From the IMG/VR virus record IMGVR_UViG_3300008050_000030: a stretch of DNA of 19,895 nt; one strand, written 5' to 3'. The notes under the pieces are model-generated. The model saw only the letters and a list, made by a program, of their open reading frames with translations, was not told where the DNA came from and did not search any database. The translations under genes and the position numbers were made by a program. Every line of letters starts with the position of its first letter. The first letter of the stretch is position 1. Below are positions 4,617 through 11,056 of the stretch, one piece after another. This stretch comes from a virus.

Positions 4617-7600
4617 ATGCCTGCCATCCCCCAGCCGGGTGTCACCGTCATCCAGGAAATCCGGACCACCTCCCCCACCATCGCCAGCGCGACGCTGCCG
4701 GCGTGCATCATCGGTCCTGCCTTCCAGGTGATCGAGACGCAGGTGGACGGGTTGCTGAGCGCCGACGCCCTGGCGACGTCCTACAGCCAGTACCCCCTCA
4801 GCCTGAGCCAGTCCTCGTTCCCGGACCCGCGTGGCAACATCTCCGAGCTGGACATCCAGGAGGACACGGTCGAGGCGTCGCTCTTCTACGGCGGCTCCCT
4901 CATCGCCCTCCCCCGCGGAGACGGCAGCCCCTTCGGCTCCGCCTTCCTGGCGGCCTCGAACGTGGCCAGCCGCGCCGTCATCGTCACCGACTTCGGTGAG
5001 ACGACCCCGTGGGCCCTGGCCGACGGCGATGTGCTCGTGCTCGCCTTCGACCGCCCCAGCGCGGTGGACACCAGCCAGGACGTGACCGTCACCATCTCCG
5101 CCGCGGCCCCGGTGGCCACGGCCGCCGAAGTGGCCTCGGCCATCAACGCCGCGGTCGGCGAGGACGTGGCCTCCGTCGTGGTGGGCGGCGCCTCCGAGGT
5201 GATGATCCGCTCGAACACCTGGGGAGCTCTCTCCTCGATCGACATCCGGGCGGGCGGCAGCGCCATGACCGCCATGTTCGGCGACACGCAGTCCCGCCGG
5301 GTCGAGGGTTCCGGCTACCGGGCCCAGGACGACTCCGACGGCGACCTCGTCAGCCCCTGGATCGAGTTCTTCGAGGGCGAGGCGTTCCAGAACGGCGTCG
5401 CCGGTTCCTGGGGAGGCGCGGGTCTCGGCCTGGGCCGCTGGACCGAGGCCGGCACGATCTCCAACGCCGACGCCGCGCTGCTCAGCTTCACCGGGGGCGG
5501 CGCGGACATCCCGTTGCAGGCGGCCAGCTCGGTGCGGGCCGGCGACGCGATGGTGAGCGACGGTGTCGACCCGGGGTGGGAGGTCGTCGAGGTGCAGGCC
5601 AGCCGCTTCCGCATGGCGCAGCTGAACTCGGCGCTCTCGACCTTCGACGACGAGGGCAACGCCACCACCCGCTTCTACGACGACCGCGAGGTCAACGTGC
5701 CGAGCCACGGGGTGCCCTTCGCGCCCCGCAACGTGTGGTTCGAGGCGCAGGGGCTGCAGTGGGGCTCGGTGAGCCCCGCCCCGGTGGCCGCCGTGCTCAC
5801 GGGCAACCTGGCGGCCAACGCGGCGCAGAAGGCCGAGGTCCAGAGCGACGGCAGCCTGACCAGCGCGGCTCTCGCGGGCACGCTGGCCCTGGCCGGGCTG
5901 ACCCTGATCACCCAGCTGGTCGACGACGGGATCTCCCAGACGCAGGTGACGTCCACCCTCGCGGGTACGGCGGCGAACACCGTGCAGCTCGCGGCGGCCC
6001 TGGACGCCCTCGCCATCCCCGGCATCGACGCCTGGAACGTCTTCGATGACGGCGCCAACGTCTGGATCCACGCGCAGACCACGAAGACGGGGTCCGGCCA
6101 GACCCTCGTCGTGCTGCCGACCGGCACAGCGAACGCCATGCTGGGCTTCTCGGTCGCCCTGGCCACGTCGCACACCGGCAAGGACCAGGAGTACGGGACC
6201 CCCGCGACGGAGACGGGCGGGACCATCGGCGCCCTGCCCATCGCCACCCTGAGCGGTACGGCCGTGACGGTCGTGGTGACGGACAGCCGCGGCACCTTCA
6301 CCAAGGTCCACACCATGGGCGCGGCCGAGGCGGCGGATGCCACCCTCGCAGACCTCGCGACGGAGCTGAACCTGCAGGCCAACCAGCTCGCCTGGGCCGG
6401 CAACATCCGCATCGGCACCTTCTCCGGTCCCGCGGCGGCCACCGGGGAGCTGGTGTTCACCAGCTTCGAGTCCGGCGACGGTGTCACCGTCGCGGTCTCG
6501 GACGACTCCGGCGGTGGCGGCACCCTGGACATGACCAACGCGCCGGTCGCCGGCGCAGGCACCCTGAGCGGCACGACCCTCCAGCACTCGCTGGACGGCG
6601 GTGACGCGATCACGGTGACCTTCGGCAGCGACTCGCTGGACGACGCGGTCGCGGCGATCAACCTCGCCCACGGCGGGGCGGCCATCGCCTCGATCTCCAC
6701 CACCTTCATGCGCCTCACCTCGCCCCTGGGCGGAGTGGCCTCGTCCATCGACGTGGACGCGGCTTCGACGGCGGACTCGATCCTCGGCTTCCTGCCGGCG
6801 AACGACGAGGCCGCCGGCTCGGGCCGCCCGAACCCGGACTGCTTCCTGGACCTCAGCGGCAACCTGGTGCTGGGCGCGGGCATCCTGCGCAACAGCCTGA
6901 CCGGCGCCCCGTTCGTCCCGGCCTCCGCTGGTCTGTACGTGGCCTACGAGGCACTCCGCCTCGATGTCAGCTCGTCCTCCGCCGCGGTGGAGAAGCTGCT
7001 GACCATCGAGGACCAGGCGACCCTCGAGGCCATCGGTGAGCCCATCGACGCGCGGAACCCGCTCTTCCTGGGCATGTACCTCGCGCTGCTCAACTCGCCG
7101 ACCACGGCCATCACCGGCATCGGGGTGGACGAGGTCAGCGCCGCGCAGCCCGAGGGCACGCTGGACGGCTACGCCCGGGCCTTCGACTACCTGGAGGCCA
7201 AGGACGTCTACGCGATGGCTCCGCTGACGGAGAACGAGCTGGTCCACCTGGTGCTCGACACGCACGTCACCGCCATGAGCGCGGCGGAGCAGCGGGGCGA
7301 GCGCATCGGACTCATCGCACCGGAGGCGCCGACGCGCGCCTTCCCGGCAGCGGTGGCCTCGGGCATCGGCGACTCCACGGCCAACCCCAACGAGATGACC
7401 ATCGACGTGAACCCCACGGGTCAGCTGGTGGCCGCCGGACTCAACCCGGCTGCGCTCGACGCGGACGACGGGGTCTACCTCGAGGTGACCGTGGGCGGGG
7501 ACTTCCGCCGCTACAGCCTGTCGCTGGTCAACGGGACGCTGCTGCAGTTCCGCAACTCGTTCTCCTCGCCGGACAACGACGACGGCTTCTACACGACCAC

Positions 7601-8333
7601 GCAGCTGACCTCGTCGCTGGTCAGCGTGGCCTACGCGCTGAAGATCCGCGGGGACGAGCTGCTGATCCCCGGCAGCTCCCTCCCGGACCTGCCGGCCCGT
7701 GCCGCCGCGGTGGCCGCGTCCGCCACGGACTACCTGAACCGGCGGATGTTCTACCTGTTCCCGGACTCGGTGTCGGCGGAGCTCGACGCCGGCACCGCCG
7801 TCGTGCCGGCCTACTACGCCGCCGCCGCGGTGGCGGGGCAGATCGGCCACCAGCCGCCGGCGCAGCCCCTGACCAACTTCCCCATCTCGGGGCTGAGCGC
7901 GGTCCAGGGGTCGCACGACACCTACAAGAAGAGCCTGCTCGACCAGATCGCCGGCGGAGGGGTGTACATCCTCTTCCAGCAGTCGTCGGGCGGCGCGGTC
8001 ATGTGCCGGCACCAGCTCTCCACCGACACGAGCTCGGTGGAACAGCGGGAGCTGTCCATCACCAAGGCGGTCGACTTCGTGGCCAAGTTCCTGCGGAACG
8101 CGCTGCGGAACCTGATCGGCCGGTTCAACATCACCCCGCAGTTCCTGAACAACCTCGCCACCGTGATCCAGGGCCAGCTGGCCTTCCTCGGCCCCGACGG
8201 GCTGCAGGTCATCGCGGCGGCGCAGCTGAACAACGTGCTGCAGGACGAGTCGAGCCCCGACACCATCCTGGTCGACGTGACCCTGACGCCGCTCTACCCG
8301 GCGAACCAGATCCGCGTGACTTTGGTCGTCTAG
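4617..8333 (+). CDS. Contractile tail sheath protein of 1238 aa with very large inserted domains.
   Basis: The N-terminal segment PGVTVIQEIRTTSPTIASATLPACIIGPAFQVIE carries the GPAFQ-type motif characteristic of the T4 gp18 sheath family. The C-terminal segments LIGRFNITPQFLNN and TLTPLYPANQIRVTLVV match the conserved sheath C-terminal domain. GAGGAG lies 8 nt before the ATG. The central roughly 800 aa is Ala/Gly/Thr-rich and contains internal domain repeats. The gene is followed by a putative tube gene. Confidence 0.82.
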   Translation: MPAIPQPGVTVIQEIRTTSPTIASATLPACIIGPAFQVIETQVDGLLSADALATSYSQYPLSLSQSSFPDPRGNISELDIQEDTVEASLFYGGSLIALPRGDGSPFGSAFLAASNVASRAVIVTDFGETTPWALADGDVLVLAFDRPSAVDTSQDVTVTISAAAPVATAAEVASAINAAVGEDVASVVVGGASEVMIRSNTWGALSSIDIRAGGSAMTAMFGDTQSRRVEGSGYRAQDDSDGDLVSPWIEFFEGEAFQNGVAGSWGGAGLGLGRWTEAGTISNADAALLSFTGGGADIPLQAASSVRAGDAMVSDGVDPGWEVVEVQASRFRMAQLNSALSTFDDEGNATTRFYDDREVNVPSHGVPFAPRNVWFEAQGLQWGSVSPAPVAAVLTGNLAANAAQKAEVQSDGSLTSAALAGTLALAGLTLITQLVDDGISQTQVTSTLAGTAANTVQLAAALDALAIPGIDAWNVFDDGANVWIHAQTTKTGSGQTLVVLPTGTANAMLGFSVALATSHTGKDQEYGTPATETGGTIGALPIATLSGTAVTVVVTDSRGTFTKVHTMGAAEAADATLADLATELNLQANQLAWAGNIRIGTFSGPAAATGELVFTSFESGDGVTVAVSDDSGGGGTLDMTNAPVAGAGTLSGTTLQHSLDGGDAITVTFGSDSLDDAVAAINLAHGGAAIASISTTFMRLTSPLGGVASSIDVDAASTADSILGFLPANDEAAGSGRPNPDCFLDLSGNLVLGAGILRNSLTGAPFVPASAGLYVAYEALRLDVSSSSAAVEKLLTIEDQATLEAIGEPIDARNPLFLGMYLALLNSPTTAITGIGVDEVSAAQPEGTLDGYARAFDYLEAKDVYAMAPLTENELVHLVLDTHVTAMSAAEQRGERIGLIAPEAPTRAFPAAVASGIGDSTANPNEMTIDVNPTGQLVAAGLNPAALDADDGVYLEVTVGGDFRRYSLSLVNGTLLQFRNSFSSPDNDDGFYTTTQLTSSLVSVAYALKIRGDELLIPGSSLPDLPARAAAVAASATDYLNRRMFYLFPDSVSAELDAGTAVVPAYYAAAAVAGQIGHQPPAQPLTNFPISGLSAVQGSHDTYKKSLLDQIAGGGVYILFQQSSGGAVMCRHQLSTDTSSVEQRELSITKAVDFVAKFLRNALRNLIGRFNITPQFLNNLATVIQGQLAFLGPDGLQVIAAAQLNNVLQDESSPDTILVDVTLTPLYPANQIRVTLVV
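8306..8333 (+). repeat. Upstream copy of a 28-bp imperfect direct repeat that encodes the sheath C-terminus QIRVTLVV plus stop. Its partner lies at 9311-9338.
   Basis: ccagatccgcgtgactttggtcgtctag compared with ccagatccgcgtgaccctggtggtctga. All four differences are synonymous or a stop-codon swap. Confidence 0.85.
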
Positions 8334-8379
8334 CGTAAGTTCCACTAGGTGTGTGGTAGGCTGTCTCTCGGAGGTAGCT

Positions 8380-9324
8380 ATGCCCGGTGGACGGCCCAAG
8401 AAGATCAAGCCCCCTTGCAAACTCGACGGCTGCGAGAAGCCATCGAAGTCCAGAGGGATGTGCGGCACGCACTACATGCAGCTCCGTCGCGGCGCCATCG
8501 ACGAGCGCGGTGCCTCGCTGCGGCCCATGAAGCAGGGCCGGGACGGCGGCTGTGAAGTCGATGGCTGCGGTGACCCGATCGTCGCCCGTCGGATGTGCAG
8601 CAAGCACTACCAGCGGCGGATGTCGGGCGCTTCGGGGGAGGCGAGAGAGCGCCACGCCAACCACTCCCGTGAAGGCGTGTGCAGGCTGGAGGGGTGCGGC
8701 AGGGAGATCGAGAATGGAAGAGTCCGGATGTGCCGTCGCCACTACGCGCAGTACTATCGCCGGATCATTGATGAGGACGGAGTCCGGCTCCGGGAGTTGA
8801 AGAGGGTCCCGTCAGCGGAGGGCCTGGCCTGTTCCGTCCCAGACTGCCACTCCCGGCCGACGAGGCGCGGCATGTGCCAGAAGCACCGGAGGCAGGAGCA
8901 GGCGGGCCTGATTGACGAGCAGGGCAACAAGCTCCGAGAGCACAAGACTCGGGGACGGCCCAGAAGGAAGGCCCGCTGGAGGACCTCGGGCGGGTACGTC
9001 CGCAAGCACGCGCCGGAGCACCCCAACGCCGACAAGTACGGCAACGTCCTGGAGCACCGTCTGGTGATGGAGGCCCATCTCGACCGACTTCTTGGCCCGA
9101 AGGAGGTCGTGCACCACATCAATGGGAAGCGGGACGACAACCGCCTGGAGAACCTGCAGCTGCGTCAGTGGACCACGCACCCTCCTGGATCAGAGCCCGT
9201 GGACGACATCGAGGCCGCCCTGGGGCTTCTGGAAGAGCGCTTGACCAAGAACACCACGGGCGGTGAGGCTCACTTGGAGAGGCTCCAGGACCTGCTCGAT
9301 CGGGAATCGGCCAGATCCGCGTGA
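8380..9324 (+). CDS. Free-standing HNH homing endonuclease with four N-terminal tandem Cys3His zinc-finger-like repeats.
   Basis: The C-terminus reads VVHHINGKRDDNRLENLQL, which is the HNH motif. There are four repeats of C-x3-(G/D)C-x7-9-C-x2-H(Y/R)-x3-RR. GGAGG lies 6 nt before the ATG at 8380; the ORF track's 8353 start lacks an RBS. Codon usage is rich in AGA and AGG, unlike neighbouring genes. The gene is flanked by a duplicated sheath 3' end. Confidence 0.85.
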   Translation: MPGGRPKKIKPPCKLDGCEKPSKSRGMCGTHYMQLRRGAIDERGASLRPMKQGRDGGCEVDGCGDPIVARRMCSKHYQRRMSGASGEARERHANHSREGVCRLEGCGREIENGRVRMCRRHYAQYYRRIIDEDGVRLRELKRVPSAEGLACSVPDCHSRPTRRGMCQKHRRQEQAGLIDEQGNKLREHKTRGRPRRKARWRTSGGYVRKHAPEHPNADKYGNVLEHRLVMEAHLDRLLGPKEVVHHINGKRDDNRLENLQLRQWTTHPPGSEPVDDIEAALGLLEERLTKNTTGGEAHLERLQDLLDRESARSA

Positions 9325-9338
9325 CCCTGGTGGTCTGA
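9311..9338 (+). repeat. Downstream copy of the 28-bp duplicated sheath 3' end, lying in the +1 frame across the HNH stop codon.
   Basis: See the paired repeat at 8306-8333. The duplicated sequence ends exactly where homology to the sheath gene ends. Confidence 0.85.
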
Positions 9339-9471
9339 TTCCTGGCAGGGATGCCGGGAGAAGAGTACGCTGTCTTCACACCGAGGACGTGATGGTGGCC
9401 TGCAGTGGGTAGGTCACAAGCAGTCTCCGAGAGGATCTGCTCACCACACCTCTTGACCCTGTGAGATCGCC

Positions 9472-10284
9472 ATGACGTACCAGTTCCCTCTCGAGCCCGG
9501 ACAGGCTCCCCTCTCTGTCACCGTCGAAGGTGGCGATCCCTGGGGCGACCGTCGTCTGCACCGCAAGCACGACGCCCGTTGGCGCGGCATCGCCCGACAG
9601 TTCGTGGACGAGCGTGCTCCTGGCGGAGTCGGCTACATCCGCGTCATCGACTTCGCCAACCACGTGGACGGGGAAGACCTGACCCTCGGGTCGCGGATCT
9701 ACGAGCTGGACACCGTGCCGGATGGAGTCACCGCCGGCTCCGTCGCCGTCGACGTCAGCGGCGTCGGCTCGAACGCTGACCTCGCAGTGGAGATCGCAGC
9801 GGCCATCAACGGTGACGCGGACCGTGAGGTCGATGCGGCTGTCGTCGACACCGACAAGGTGGTCTTCCTGCCGCGCACCAACTGGGGTGCCGCGGGCAAC
9901 CTCGCCATGGTGTCCACCATCAACGTCCTGGATGTTCCGGCTCCCGCTGCGCTCATGACCGGGGGCGAGCTGCCTGCGGCCATCCGCCGCTGCCAGGGCT
10001 CCTACACCGTGACGCTGGCCGATGTGACGGCTCTCACCGCCGGCGACGTCATTCCCGTCGGCTCGGTGCCGTGGACCAACGCCCCGGCCTGGACGCATCT
10101 CCAGCTCGAGTCCAGCGTCGGCCTGCTCAAGCCTCTCTCGGGCGAAGCCGGTGCCGTCGACGCAGCCACCTACGGCTGGGTGCAGGTGAACGCCAACCGC
10201 CGAGCCCTGCTCGTCTCCGCCACCGTGGTGTCGGGACTCCCCTTCGCCGCCGGCGACGTCCTCCACTGGCAGACCTCGGTCTGA
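9472..10284 (+). CDS. Hypothetical tail protein (270 aa) carrying one copy of the roughly 70-aa domain that is tandemly repeated inside the sheath insertion region.
   Basis: ADLAVEIAAAINGDADREVDAAVVDTDKVVFLPRTNWGAAGNL aligns with sheath AAEVASAINAAVGEDVASVVVGGASEVMIRSNTWGALSSI and with DDAVAAINLAHGGAAIASISTTFMRLTS. GC3 is high. The gene lies between the sheath/HNH genes and the tube gene. Confidence 0.55.
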   Translation: MTYQFPLEPGQAPLSVTVEGGDPWGDRRLHRKHDARWRGIARQFVDERAPGGVGYIRVIDFANHVDGEDLTLGSRIYELDTVPDGVTAGSVAVDVSGVGSNADLAVEIAAAINGDADREVDAAVVDTDKVVFLPRTNWGAAGNLAMVSTINVLDVPAPAALMTGGELPAAIRRCQGSYTVTLADVTALTAGDVIPVGSVPWTNAPAWTHLQLESSVGLLKPLSGEAGAVDAATYGWVQVNANRRALLVSATVVSGLPFAAGDVLHWQTSV

Positions 10285-10297
10285 GAAGGAGCCTCTG

Positions 10298-11056
10298 ATG
10301 GCCCAGCTTTCTGGATGGTCGCCCTACGACAGCTACGTGCAGGGCGGCATGATCGACGGCCGGTTCATGTCGGCCGCCTTCACCCTCATCGCCGCGGGAC
10401 CCCCGCGTCTGGCGGCGGTGGCAGGTGGGAACGGAGATCTCGGCTCCCCGGCCGAGTTCGCCTTCCCCATCGGCGTGGTGCAGAACTTCAACCTCTCCCA
10501 CAACCGGCAGTTCAGCCGGTTCTGGGAGGTCGGCTCGGAGCGCAGCTACTTCATCAGCGGCCGGACCATGGGGCAGATGTCGCTCTCGCGCATCATGTAC
10601 CACGGGTCCTCGCTGATGCGGGTGCTCTACGCCTACTACCAGGACCTGATCCCCGACACGGGGGCCTCGTTCGCGGCCATGTTCGACAACCCCGGCATCG
10701 CCGGCGTCGCCAACAAGCACGACGTCGTCATCCCGCCGGGCTACGAGAACGTGTTCCTGAACCTGGCCTCGGACCTGTTCGCCCAGCCCATCGGCATCCT
10801 GCTGTACTTCCGCGACAGCAACATGGCCACCCTGGGGGCCGGGTACCTCGAGTCCTGCTACGTCCCGGCGATCAACCTCGCCTCGGACTCGCAGGGCACG
10901 GTGATCCAGGAGTCGGCGCAGATCCAGTTCGAGCGGATGATGCCCATCGACGTCAACGCGGTCGCCCTGATCCGCGGCGGCATCGATGAGCTGATCCCCG
11001 GCGCGGACATGCTGCCCTCCGGGTCCATCCCCTCGGGAGGATTCCCTCCGGGGTAG
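10298..11056 (+). CDS. Putative tail tube protein (252 aa).
   Basis: The gene sits in the position downstream of the sheath. GAAGGAG lies 7 nt before the ATG. There is weak motif resemblance to the gp19 tube family (P-x-G-V-V-x7-NRQ...). It is followed by a strong terminator. It is larger than typical tube proteins, so confidence is moderate. Confidence 0.45.
   Translation: MAQLSGWSPYDSYVQGGMIDGRFMSAAFTLIAAGPPRLAAVAGGNGDLGSPAEFAFPIGVVQNFNLSHNRQFSRFWEVGSERSYFISGRTMGQMSLSRIMYHGSSLMRVLYAYYQDLIPDTGASFAAMFDNPGIAGVANKHDVVIPPGYENVFLNLASDLFAQPIGILLYFRDSNMATLGAGYLESCYVPAINLASDSQGTVIQESAQIQFERMMPIDVNAVALIRGGIDELIPGADMLPSGSIPSGGFPPG

What the first reader, a model, noticed from the sequence alone, without database searches (positions are those of the whole stretch)
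8306..9338. Homing-endonuclease cassette inserted at the exact 3' end of the sheath gene, with a synonymously recoded 28-bp target duplication
The HNH gene (8380-9324) is bracketed by two copies of the last 28 nt of the sheath gene, at 8306-8333 and 9311-9338. Both copies encode QIRVTLVV plus stop. They differ only at three synonymous third positions (act/acc, ttg/ctg, gtc/gtg) and in the stop codon (tag/tga). Homology ends precisely at the repeat boundary. This is the signature of a free-standing HEG that carried a re-coded, presumably cleavage-immune, copy of its target into the sheath terminus while preserving the sheath reading frame. The roughly 45-bp leader at 8334-8379 is also lower in GC than the surrounding sequence. 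The HNH gene uses AGA and AGG arginine codons that the neighbouring genes avoid, which supports recent horizontal arrival.
Basis: seen in the sequence. Interest (0 to 1): 0.7.

Follow-up and report, generated by a model that had tools for sequence, protein, structure and literature searches.

The report
Homing endonuclease carrying spare sheath tail
A selfish endonuclease gene sits inside the last eight codons of a phage tail-sheath gene and brings its own synonymously re-spelled copy of those codons, leaving the original ones behind as a relic; the same design recurs in related phages and resembles mobile endonuclease genes of fungal mitochondria.

Summary
8306-8333 and 9311-9338 match at 23 of 28 bases, and both encode QIRVTLVV plus a stop codon. 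They bracket an HNH_3 endonuclease gene (8380-9324).

Three relatives lack the HNH gene. Their sheath end and downstream spacer line up with copy 2, at 27/28 for L004. Copy 1 is therefore the incoming tail and copy 2 is the displaced native tail.

The pattern recurs:
- All 16 HNH homologues I could place, 15 intact and one remnant, lie directly after a sheath gene.
- Five of them (window, L018, L158, L077, L195) keep a second copy of the last 7-8 sheath codons at the HNH 3' end.
- That copy differs from the working tail only synonymously (P about 9e-10).

In HNH-bearing phages the last 8-9 sheath codons use atypical AT-ending codons. HNH-free relatives keep a conserved GC-ending tail (p = 3e-6; replicated in IMG/VR, p = 8e-4).

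Best reading: a free-standing homing endonuclease cassette made of recoded tail, leader and HNH, whose left edge lies inside the sheath reading frame. Cleavage and immunity are untested.

The AGA/AGG codon and low-GC leader arguments are weak.

The closest precedents are the fungal mitochondrial mobile ORFs with C-terminal duplications and the T4 MobA cassette.

The parts
4617..8333 (+). Tail sheath gene (1238 aa). It is the host gene of the element. Its last 8 codons and stop belong to the incoming cassette.
   Evidence: phrog_279 tail sheath, E 1e-15. 100 homologues with the same C-terminal motif.
8306..8333 (+). Copy 1: the working, synonymously recoded sheath tail (C + CAG ATC CGC GTG ACT TTG GTC GTC TAG). 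It is the left end of the cassette.
   Evidence: Continuous with the sheath body. 22/28 to L004 against 27/28 for copy 2. Holds the only ACT of 103 Thr codons and one of 3 TTG of 122 Leu codons in a gene whose last 138 body codons have GC3 of 0.99.
8334..8379 (+). Leader of the cassette, with a GGAGG ribosome-binding box at 8370-8374. It has no counterpart in HNH-free relatives.
   Evidence: Absent from L001, L004 and L006. 54% GC. No sigma-70 consensus promoter found.
8380..9324 (+). HNH_3 endonuclease gene (314 aa). Four Cys/His zinc-finger-like modules are encoded at 135-nt spacing (about 8410-8900). The HNH motif is at aa 226-261 (nt 9055-9162). The last four codons and the stop are read from copy 2 in the +1 frame.
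   Evidence: Pfam HNH_3 30.3 bits. PHROG HNH families. 135-nt repeats D1/D2. Invariant H226, H245, H246, N254, N258 and H267 in alignment A3.
9311..9338 (+). Copy 2: the displaced native sheath tail (C + CAG ATC CGC GTG ACC CTG GTG GTC TGA). It is no longer joined to the sheath reading frame.
   Evidence: 27/28 to the L004 sheath end and collinear with its spacer. In the sheath frame a stop lies 24 codons upstream.
9339..9471 (+). Native sheath-to-next-gene spacer, of the L004/L005 type.
   Evidence: Alignment A1. Sliding identity to L005 is 0.66-0.78 here, against 0.46-0.64 to L001 and L006.
9472..10284 (+). Variable gene after the sheath, allele type A. It provides right-hand flanking homology only for phages of the same type.
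   Evidence: About 80% nt identity to L005 and about 50% to L001 and L006.

Best explanation
This is a free-standing HNH homing endonuclease cassette whose left edge lies inside the sheath reading frame, between codon -9 (Asn) and codon -8.

Composition. The cassette has three parts: (1) a replacement copy of the last eight sheath codons plus a stop, spelled with different synonymous codons (8306-8333); (2) a 46-nt leader with its own ribosome-binding site; (3) the HNH gene. Its insertion pushed the native last eight codons and stop downstream. They survive as an unattached relic (9311-9338), joined to the native spacer.

Inferred mechanism, not shown. The enzyme recognises the strongly conserved nucleotide sequence at the end of HNH-free sheath genes and cuts at or near codon -9/-8. 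The break is repaired from an HNH-bearing genome during co-infection. The sheath body serves as the left homology arm, and the relic plus spacer serve as the right arm. Repair copies the recoded tail, the leader and the HNH gene.

Inferred immunity. The HNH-bearing genome would escape cutting because the intact site is split. The upstream half now abuts a recoded tail, and the native tail now abuts the end of the HNH gene.

Why the two copies differ only synonymously. The relic is either the recipient's own tail at each homing event, or it is kept matched to real tails because it serves as the homology arm.
For: Identity of the gene:
- HNH_3 domain with an intact motif.
- No intron or other RNA family in 7500-10500. 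The ORF fills the insert and has its own GGAGG box.

Sporadic but site-specific distribution:
- The HNH gene is absent from the three closest relatives.
- It is absent from about 30 of 31 distinct metagenome loci and from 65 of 72 IMG/VR loci.
- All 16 homologues that could be placed lie directly after a sheath gene: L066, L068, L070, L072, L074, L075, L077, L078, L018, L158, L195, L196, L198, L218, the L210 remnant and the window.

Which copy is native:
- Copy 2 and the spacer are collinear with HNH-free relatives. Copy 2 matches L004 at 27/28; copy 1 matches at 22/28.
- In L077 the relic matches the tail of its HNH-free relative L025 at 21/24 and its own copy 1 at 17/24 (my hand count of the tail sequences printed). 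The sheath 3' regions of L077 and L025 are 80% identical.

Recurrence of the relic at the same place:
- L018 and L158 have the relic right after the HNH stop, beginning 28-29 nt before the relic's stop.
- L077 and L195 have it fused in frame (..HNLT-IRLTLVV*), 24 nt.
- The HNH proteins involved are only 40-47% identical.

Selection on both copies: all 15 coding differences in three pairs are synonymous. The random expectations are 0.021, 1.5e-4 and 2.9e-4, with a product of 9e-10.

Recoding goes with the HNH gene:
- Tail GC3 minus body GC3 is -0.30 in 10 HNH-bearing phages (all negative) and +0.12 in 25 HNH-free ones. Mann-Whitney p = 2.7e-6.
- The drop is confined to codons -9 to -1.
- It replicates in IMG/VR: -0.18 (n = 7) against +0.02 (n = 65), p = 8e-4.
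- The second most recoded 'HNH-free' outlier, L181 (-0.42), carries a different endonuclease at the same spot (phrog_1035 endonuclease VII, E 3e-41).

Decay stage: L210 keeps only the last ~55 codons of an HNH gene after a recoded tail.
Against: - No cleavage, homing or expression data exist. The phage is known only from metagenome contigs.
- Eleven of the 16 HNH-bearing loci have no relic, so the relic is not obligatory. The ancestral state could equally be a clean insertion after the stop codon.
- Junction geometry falls into two classes, stop-abutting and in-frame fusion. This allows more than one origin.
- The statistics on recoding are not corrected for phylogeny.
- Low tail GC3 could be hitch-hiking from a lower-GC donor rather than selected immunity.
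- The native-looking relic remains in the HNH-bearing genome. Immunity therefore needs the extra assumption that recognition spans the codon -9/-8 junction.
- Within the window the first 15 nt of the two copies are identical, so the left edge cannot be placed more exactly than 8306-8320.
Confidence: 0.72

Rival explanations
1. One-off repair scars. The HNH gene normally sits cleanly after the sheath stop. In some homing events the region downstream of the break had no homology, because the allele of the variable next gene differed. The right end was then joined illegitimately, trapping the recipient's last 24-29 nt. Each relic would be an independent accident that marks the cut site.
For: - The next gene has two allele types that are only about 50% identical. 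Identity between the otherwise 93-97% identical L005 and L006 collapses exactly at the sheath stop.
- Eleven of 16 HNH loci have no relic.
- Two junction geometries exist.
Against: - The donor-side junction is always at the very end of the HNH ORF. The recipient-side junction always lies 24-29 nt before the stop, across HNH proteins that are 40-47% identical. Independent illegitimate joins should scatter.
- L077 and L195 share the identical fusion junction while having different sheath tails, so the junction is inherited with the HNH lineage.
Confidence: 0.17
2. Target-site duplication made by a transposition-like insertion or a local tandem duplication, followed by neutral drift of the unused copy.
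For: Direct repeats flank a mobile gene.
Against: - All 15 coding differences between copies in three phages are synonymous, and the relic keeps its in-frame stop (P about 9e-10). A drifting pseudo-copy would not show this.
- The relic is closer to HNH-free relatives than to its partner copy.
- No transposase or integrase is present, and 24-29 bp is far longer than usual duplications.
Confidence: 0.03
3. Chance similarity between the sheath end and the HNH end, with an HNH gene that has a housekeeping role such as DNA packaging.
For: A 15-nt exact match in 20 kb of GC-rich DNA is not wildly improbable on its own. Shuffles give 0.08 pairs of the full quality per window.
Against: - Same frame, same peptide, and a position exactly at the insertion edge defined by relatives.
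- The pattern recurs in four other phages.
- The HNH gene is missing from about 90% of relatives. It is not next to a terminase gene.
Confidence: 0.01
4. Intron- or intein-like element that is removed at the RNA or protein level. The mature sheath would then use copy 2.
For: Copy 2 is in the same frame as the sheath (spacing 1005 = 3 x 335).
Against: - A stop codon ends the sheath ORF at 8331-8333.
- No group I or II intron model matches, even at E <= 1.
- Only 46 nt of the insert are non-coding, which leaves no room for a ribozyme core.
- In the sheath frame, stops occur upstream of copy 2.
Confidence: 0.01

Closest known systems
Mobile endonuclease ORFs (mORFs) of fungal mitochondria that create 'gene hybrids' with a C-terminal duplication. 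Examples: Allomyces macrogynus atp6; Glomus sp. atp6, atp9, cox2 and nad3; Rhizopus oryzae atp9; Mortierella cox2. Source: PMC3630166 and its reference 48.
   Same: An endonuclease ORF is inserted in the 3' part of a conserved gene. The element brings an in-frame substitute C-terminus that is the one expressed. The native C-terminus stays downstream of the ORF. The native copy is nearly identical to that of element-free relatives, while the inserted one is diverged, largely synonymously. [quoted passage not shown]
   Different: Those enzymes are LAGLIDADG or GIY-YIG, in mitochondrial genomes, and they replace tens to hundreds of nucleotides. Here the enzyme is an HNH_3 protein in a large tailed phage, the host gene is structural, and only 7-8 codons are replaced. 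Mobility has been shown biochemically for Allomyces but not here.
Phage T4 MobA / gene 60 cassette (Bonocora et al. 2011, as summarised in bioRxiv 10.1101/2022.08.31.505936).
   Same: An HNH-family free-standing homing endonuclease is inserted inside a reading frame without an intron or intein. The element carries a stretch homologous to the displaced target region (HomR), and carries a sequence change that protects the carrier from further cutting. It inserts repeatedly at nearly the same site in several phage clades. Decayed and 'hit-and-run' forms exist.
   Different: MobA splits the topoisomerase gene into two proteins and needs a 50-nt translational bypass. It deletes 55-75 nt of the target rather than leaving it as a relic. 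Here the host gene stays whole, no bypass is needed because the insertion is so close to the stop, and the displaced piece is retained.
Intronless homing by T4 Seg and Mob endonucleases (established knowledge; see also PMC2330249 for SegB and PMC10448857 for ICP1).
   Same: A free-standing endonuclease gene lies next to a conserved essential gene. Its distribution among relatives is sporadic. Target-site sequence differences are present in carrier genomes. The site is a boundary of genetic exchange.
   Different: Those genes sit between genes and do not duplicate part of the neighbour. Their cleavage and co-conversion have been shown experimentally.
attP sites of integrating elements that carry a replacement 3' end of a tRNA gene (established knowledge).
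   Same: The logic is the same: an element that inserts inside a gene restores it by bringing a spare 3' end, and the old end is left as a repeat.
   Different: Those use integrase-mediated site-specific recombination with identical core repeats, and no endonuclease-driven repair.

Membership tests
Free-standing homing endonuclease gene, HNH_3 type | HNH catalytic motif present and intact | tested here: met
   Pfam HNH_3 30.3 bits (cut-off 24.8), aa 226-261. The His and Asn residues are invariant across 12 homologues.
Free-standing homing endonuclease gene, HNH_3 type | Present in some and absent from other closely related genomes, at the same site | tested here: met
   Absent from L001, L004/5 and L006. 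Present in about 10% of sheath loci. All 16 placed homologues lie directly after a sheath gene.
Free-standing homing endonuclease gene, HNH_3 type | Not embedded in an intron or intein; has its own translation signals | tested here: met
   No Rfam intron at E <= 1. GGAGG box 5 nt before the ATG. The sheath ORF ends with a stop before the leader.
Free-standing homing endonuclease gene, HNH_3 type | Carrier genomes differ from empty genomes in the target sequence | tested here: met
   Codons -9 to -1 of the sheath are recoded in carriers only. That this stretch is the target is an inference.
Free-standing homing endonuclease gene, HNH_3 type | Site-specific cleavage of the empty allele, and transfer with flanking markers in mixed infection | not testable with these tools
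   The phage is uncultured and no biochemical data exist. The sheath stop is a mosaic boundary, which is compatible but not specific.
mORF-type 'gene hybrid' with C-terminal duplication (fungal mitochondria) | Element supplies an in-frame substitute C-terminus; the native C-terminus is retained downstream of the endonuclease ORF | tested here: met
   Copy 1 and copy 2 in the window. The same holds in L018, L158, L077 and L195.
mORF-type 'gene hybrid' with C-terminal duplication (fungal mitochondria) | The native copy matches element-free relatives better than the inserted copy does | tested here: met
   To L004: 27/28 against 22/28. To L001: 25 against 20. L077 relic against L025: 21/24, compared with 17/24 to its own copy 1 (hand count).
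mORF-type 'gene hybrid' with C-terminal duplication (fungal mitochondria) | LAGLIDADG or GIY-YIG endonuclease in a mitochondrial genome | tested here: not met
   This is an HNH_3 enzyme in a phage contig of 188 kb. It is therefore an analogue, not a member.
T4 MobA / gene 60 cassette | Splits the host gene in two and carries a translational bypass element | tested here: not met
   The sheath ORF is complete (1238 aa, same length class as HNH-free homologues). No second sheath fragment gene is present.
Group I intron with an internal homing endonuclease | Ribozyme core flanking the ORF | tested here: not met
   No Rfam match. Only 46 nt of the insert are non-coding.
Transposon-type target-site duplication | Repeats identical at insertion and then drifting neutrally; a transposase present | tested here: not met
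   Differences are all synonymous in three pairs. There is no transposase.

The most novel reading that the evidence does not exclude
The displaced sheath tail is not a passive scar but a maintained working part of the selfish element. It would be a portable right-hand homology arm of 24-28 nt, and possibly also a half binding site for the enzyme. It would let the cassette home into any phage of this large clade even when everything downstream of the sheath is non-homologous, as with the hypervariable next gene at about 50% identity. Selection on the element would then keep the relic matched to the population's consensus tail. This would explain why relics stay 'synonymous-only' and consensus-like while their HNH genes have diverged to 40% identity.
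Probability: 0.25. Interest if true: 0.65.

Novelty: new variant of a known kind. Interest (0 to 1): 0.5.

Why it matters
It shows a third way for a homing endonuclease gene to live inside an essential reading frame without an intron, an intein or a translational bypass. The element inserts a few codons before the stop and brings a spare, re-spelled end.

The design was known from fungal mitochondria with other enzyme families. In three literature searches I found no description of it for phages or for HNH enzymes.

Practically, the relic and the recoded tract together mark the likely recognition and cut site of an uncharacterised enzyme family to within about 30 bp. That makes the specificity directly testable with synthetic DNA.

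The contrast between tail and body codon usage may be usable as a computational detector of endonuclease target sites and of past 'hit-and-run' invasions.

It also explains a sharp mosaic boundary at the sheath stop in this group of roughly 200-kb phages.

Tried and rejected
- DNA search of 7300-10300 against 50,697 phage records found no match. A protein search of the sheath C-terminus found only distant hits: Salmonella phage Arash and Bacillus phage G, about 30%.
- The first IMG/VR scan, with a single sheath protein, found nothing. An alignment query was needed.
- Group I/II intron hypothesis: the Rfam E-value scan gave only a sub-threshold snoRNA hit. Rejected.
- Inverted repeat between the leader (8347-8373) and the spacer (9427-9453). 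The local alignment score is 21, against shuffles of 12.6 +/- 2.0 with a maximum of 23. The shared part is a Shine-Dalgarno-like CTCTCGGAG. I treat it as unproven.
- Codon usage and GC as evidence of foreign origin of the HNH gene: not discriminating.
- Sigma-70 promoter scan of the leader: none found.
- A 20/28 match of the sheath tail at the end of the next gene in L029 and L032. The next gene there is not an endonuclease, so this is chance or an ordinary C-terminal strand.
- Search for a donor. The nearest HNH is 44% identical, on a 1.4-kb contig whose DNA could not be fetched. The donor remains unknown.
- Pfam on the ORFs after recoded but 'HNH-free' tails (L181, L182, L185) was uninformative. 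PHROGs then identified the L181 ORF as an endonuclease VII-type nuclease.
- C-termini of 120 HNH homologues were screened for in-frame sheath tails. Only P0112 has one.
Full report
**What is in the sequence**

The window is the first 19.9 kb of a 188,377-bp metagenome contig (ENA ERZ27249009 k141_382418). It has no DNA match among 50,697 deposited phage genomes.

ORF 4617-8333 (1238 aa) is a tail sheath. Its C-terminal 180 residues match phrog_279 (E 1e-15). One hundred homologues of about 1100-1500 aa, mostly on contigs of up to about 210 kb, share its C-terminal motif ..PDT(I/V)L(V/I)D..(Y/F)P(A/C)N(Y/Q/K)I(R/K)xTxxx*.

After the sheath stop come, in order:
- a 46-nt leader with GGAGG five bases before an ATG;
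- a 314-aa ORF (8380-9324) with a Pfam HNH_3 domain (30.3 bits, cut-off 24.8) and four Cys/His modules encoded at 135-nt spacing;
- a 133-nt spacer after copy 2;
- a 270-aa gene.

**The repeat**

8306-8333 and 9311-9338 are identical at 23 of 28 positions, with the first 15 exact. They lie 1005 nt (335 codons) apart and both read QIRVTLVV-stop in the sheath frame. The differences are ACT/ACC, TTG/CTG, GTC/GTG and TAG/TGA.

It is the only pair of that quality in the window. Shuffled windows give 0.08 on average. Nothing matches in the ten bases upstream of either copy.

The HNH stop codon lies inside copy 2, one frame off. The enzyme's last four residues are therefore encoded by relic sequence.

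**Which copy is native**

Three groups of relatives have sheaths 71-74% identical and lack the HNH gene. In them the sheath stop is followed by 125-140 nt and then the next gene.

Aligned to the window, their sheath end and spacer continue through copy 2 and the sequence after it. Copy 1 simply continues the window's sheath body.

| Relative | Match to copy 2 | Match to copy 1 |
|---|---|---|
| L004 | 27/28 | 22/28 |
| L001 | 25/28 | 20/28 |
| L006 | 24/28 | 23/28 |

(All.)

The inserted block is therefore 8306-9310, give or take the 15 shared bases. It consists of a new tail, a leader and the HNH gene.

Within a sheath gene whose last 138 body codons have GC3 of 0.99, copy 1 contains the only ACT of 103 Thr codons and one of three TTG among 122 Leu codons.

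**The enzyme family lives at this site**

The nearest HNH homologue is only about 44% identical. Even so, every homologue whose context I could read lies directly after a sheath gene:
- P0113, P0107, P0110, P0106, P0105, P0120 and P0112;
- L018/L019, found independently in the sheath scan;
- L078;
- L158, L195, L196, L198 and L218, plus a truncated remnant in L210, from an IMG/VR sheath scan.

The gene is rare among sheath loci. It occurs in about 1 of 30 distinct metagenome loci and 7 of 72 IMG/VR loci.

Sporadic presence at one fixed site next to a conserved essential gene is the classic signature of a free-standing homing endonuclease gene.

**The duplication recurs**

- L018: the HNH stop is followed at once by (C)AC TAC ATC CGC CTG ACC TTG ATC GTG TGA. 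The sheath ends AAT TAT ATT CGT TTG ACC CTG ATC GTA TAG. Both encode YIRLTLIV*.
- L158..CTC TGA | C TAC ATC CGC GTC ACC CTG GTG GTC TGA, against a sheath ending TAC ATC AGG GTT ACC TTG GTT GTC TGA. The relic is 28 nt, as in the window.
- L077 and L195: the HNH ORF runs in frame into ATC CGC CTG ACC CTC GTG GTC TGA and so ends ..HNLT-IRLTLVV*. The two phages share an identical fusion junction but have different sheath tails.

Five of 16 carriers thus keep the displaced tail. It starts 24-29 nt before its stop and always sits at the very end of the HNH ORF, although the enzymes are only 40-47% identical.

No HNH-free locus has such a copy. The best scores were 14-20 of 28 in 36 loci, and none of 65 loci reached 6 of 8 at peptide level.

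**Both copies have been under protein-level selection**

In the window, L018 and L077, all 15 coding differences between the two copies are synonymous, and each relic keeps its stop. Random substitutions would achieve this with probabilities 0.021, 1.5e-4 and 2.9e-4, a product of 9e-10.

A neutrally drifting duplicate is therefore excluded. The relic has been a real sheath end until recently, or it is kept matched to real sheath ends.

**Recoding tracks the endonuclease**

I compared GC3 of the last eight sheath codons with GC3 of the preceding gene body.

| Data set | HNH-bearing | HNH-free | Mann-Whitney p |
|---|---|---|---|
| Metagenome and first loci | -0.30, n = 10, range -0.47 to -0.11 | +0.12, n = 25, range -0.03 to +0.41 | 2.7e-6 |
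| IMG/VR replication | -0.18, n = 7 | +0.02, n = 65 | 8e-4 |

Position by position, the difference is confined to codons -9 to -1. There GC3 is 0.2-0.8 in carriers and 0.84-1.0 in non-carriers. Upstream codons are alike.

HNH-free tails are strikingly uniform at the DNA level (TGC AAC TAC ATC CGC CTS ACC CTS GTG RTC), even in low-GC3 genomes. The relics look like that consensus.

The second most recoded 'HNH-free' outlier, L181, carries an unrelated endonuclease VII-type nuclease at the same spot (phrog_1035, E 3e-41). L210 has a recoded tail next to a decayed HNH.

These tests are not phylogenetically corrected. The carriers are, however, scattered among non-carriers. For example, the L077 and L025 sheath ends are 80% identical.

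**Mechanism**

Shown:
- the composition and edges of the insert;
- its polarity, with copy 1 incoming and copy 2 native;
- its recurrence;
- selection on both copies;
- the link between carriage and recoding.

Inferred:
- The enzyme recognises the conserved sheath end and cuts near codon -9/-8.
- Repair from a carrier genome copies the cassette. The sheath body is the left arm, and the relic plus spacer are the right arm.
- Carriers are protected because the site is split and one half is re-spelled.

Recoding alone cannot protect the carrier, because the native spelling persists as copy 2. Recognition must therefore also need sequence upstream of codon -8.

The gene after the sheath exists in two allele types that are only about 50% identical. 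Identity between the otherwise near-identical L005 and L006 collapses exactly at the sheath stop. The site is thus a recombination boundary, and a short portable right arm could matter.

**Rivals**

- Independent illegitimate-repair scars would explain why most carriers lack a relic and why two junction types exist. They would not explain the constant position on both sides, nor the shared junction of L077 and L195.
- Transposon-like duplication, chance and intron or intein readings are rejected.

**Comparison with what is known**

The closest analogue is the mobile endonuclease ORF of fungal mitochondria. It inserts in atp6, atp9, cox2 or nad3, supplies a foreign in-frame C-terminus, and leaves the native C-terminus downstream. 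The native copy matches element-free relatives and the changes are largely synonymous (PMC3630166, which cites the Allomyces atp6 case, read).

In phages, the T4 MobA element likewise carries a stretch homologous to its displaced target, plus a protective sequence. It splits the gene and needs a translational bypass (bioRxiv 10.1101/2022.08.31.505936).

The present element is not a member of either. The enzyme family, the host genome and the solution all differ. It works on the same principle.

Three literature searches found no description of this design for phage HNH genes. That is not proof of absence.

**Verdict**

The supporting arguments from AGA/AGG codons and leader GC are weak.

The finding is a neat phage and HNH version of a known strategy, and it recurs across a large clade of uncultured phages with genomes of about 200 kb.

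Its main value is a concrete, testable prediction of the target site, and a codon-usage signature of endonuclease pressure.

Noticed in passing
window 9472-10284; L001, L004/5, L006; L026-L041: The gene after the sheath is hypervariable. It has two allele types about 50% identical at the DNA level among phages whose sheaths are 93-97% identical. Its length ranges from 141 to 667 aa in more distant relatives, which share only an N-terminal ..RxHR(K/R)xDxR.. motif. In some clades (L070) it is absent and the next conserved gene (homologue of window 10298-11056) follows directly.
   Followed up: partly
L081 (IMGVR_UViG_3300032177_000028), 2229-2288 and 2672-2731: In an unrelated 41-kb phage contig, an HNH_3 ORF ends with a 25/30-nt copy of the 3' end of the upstream gene (..GTGGAGATATTC(C/G)CATGA). 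This includes the ATGA stop/start overlap. The design may therefore be general for HNH_3 genes.
   Followed up: partly
L181 3704-4426 (IMGVR_UViG_3300032516_000003): A different nuclease (phrog_1035 endonuclease VII-type, E 3e-41; no Pfam hit) occupies the same post-sheath site. Its leader contains CGGTATAAG, as do several HNH leaders (L066, L072, L075), and the sheath tail is strongly recoded. The sheath end looks like a hot spot for more than one endonuclease family.
   Followed up: partly
L210 3682-3870 (IMGVR_UViG_3300018080_000110): A 5'-truncated HNH remnant, the last ~55 codons and 92% identical to the L070 enzyme, sits directly after the sheath stop. This is a decaying copy.
   Followed up: no
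L185, L182, L212, L213, L201: These loci have no recognised endonuclease, yet their sheath tails have clearly lower GC3 than the gene body (-0.18 to -0.44). L185 has about 500 nt without a long ORF after the sheath. They may be 'hit-and-run' traces.
   Followed up: no
window 9339-9471 and the homologous spacers of L001, L004, L006: The sheath-to-next-gene spacer holds conserved blocks (GTGA.GGTGA..GC.TAGGGC...TCACA.GCAG... CCACACCTC) across phages whose next genes are only 50% identical. L001 and L004 also have a hairpin just after the stop, which is weaker in the window. This may be a promoter or RNA element.
   Followed up: no
window 8347-8373 vs 9427-9453: The HNH leader resembles the reverse complement of part of the native spacer (GTGTGGT..CTCTCGGAG). 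The alignment score is 21 against shuffles of 12.6 +/- 2.0 with a maximum of 23. This is borderline and partly Shine-Dalgarno-like.
   Followed up: partly
L011 and L012 (both on Ga0080013_1000005, 303,591 bp): One contig carries two different sheath genes, 88% and 67% identical to the window C-terminus, 60 kb apart. This may be a chimeric assembly or two concatenated phage genomes.
   Followed up: no
P0006-P0008, P0018, P0028, P0033, P0075, P0085, P0101: Some sheath homologues are 130-260 aa longer (1368-1494 aa) and align over only 48-66% of the query in one piece. This suggests an inserted domain or an intein inside the sheath.
   Followed up: no
L072 2116-2538: A 423-nt stretch without an ORF lies between the HNH gene and the next gene in this carrier, much longer than in the others.
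   Followed up: no
window 8410-8900: The HNH gene contains four tandem ~45-aa Cys-x4-5-Cys...Cys-x2-His modules (135-nt period; precomputed Pfam Zf_WRKY19-like hits in homologues). Homologues have two to four of them, so the DNA-binding part varies by module number.
   Followed up: partly
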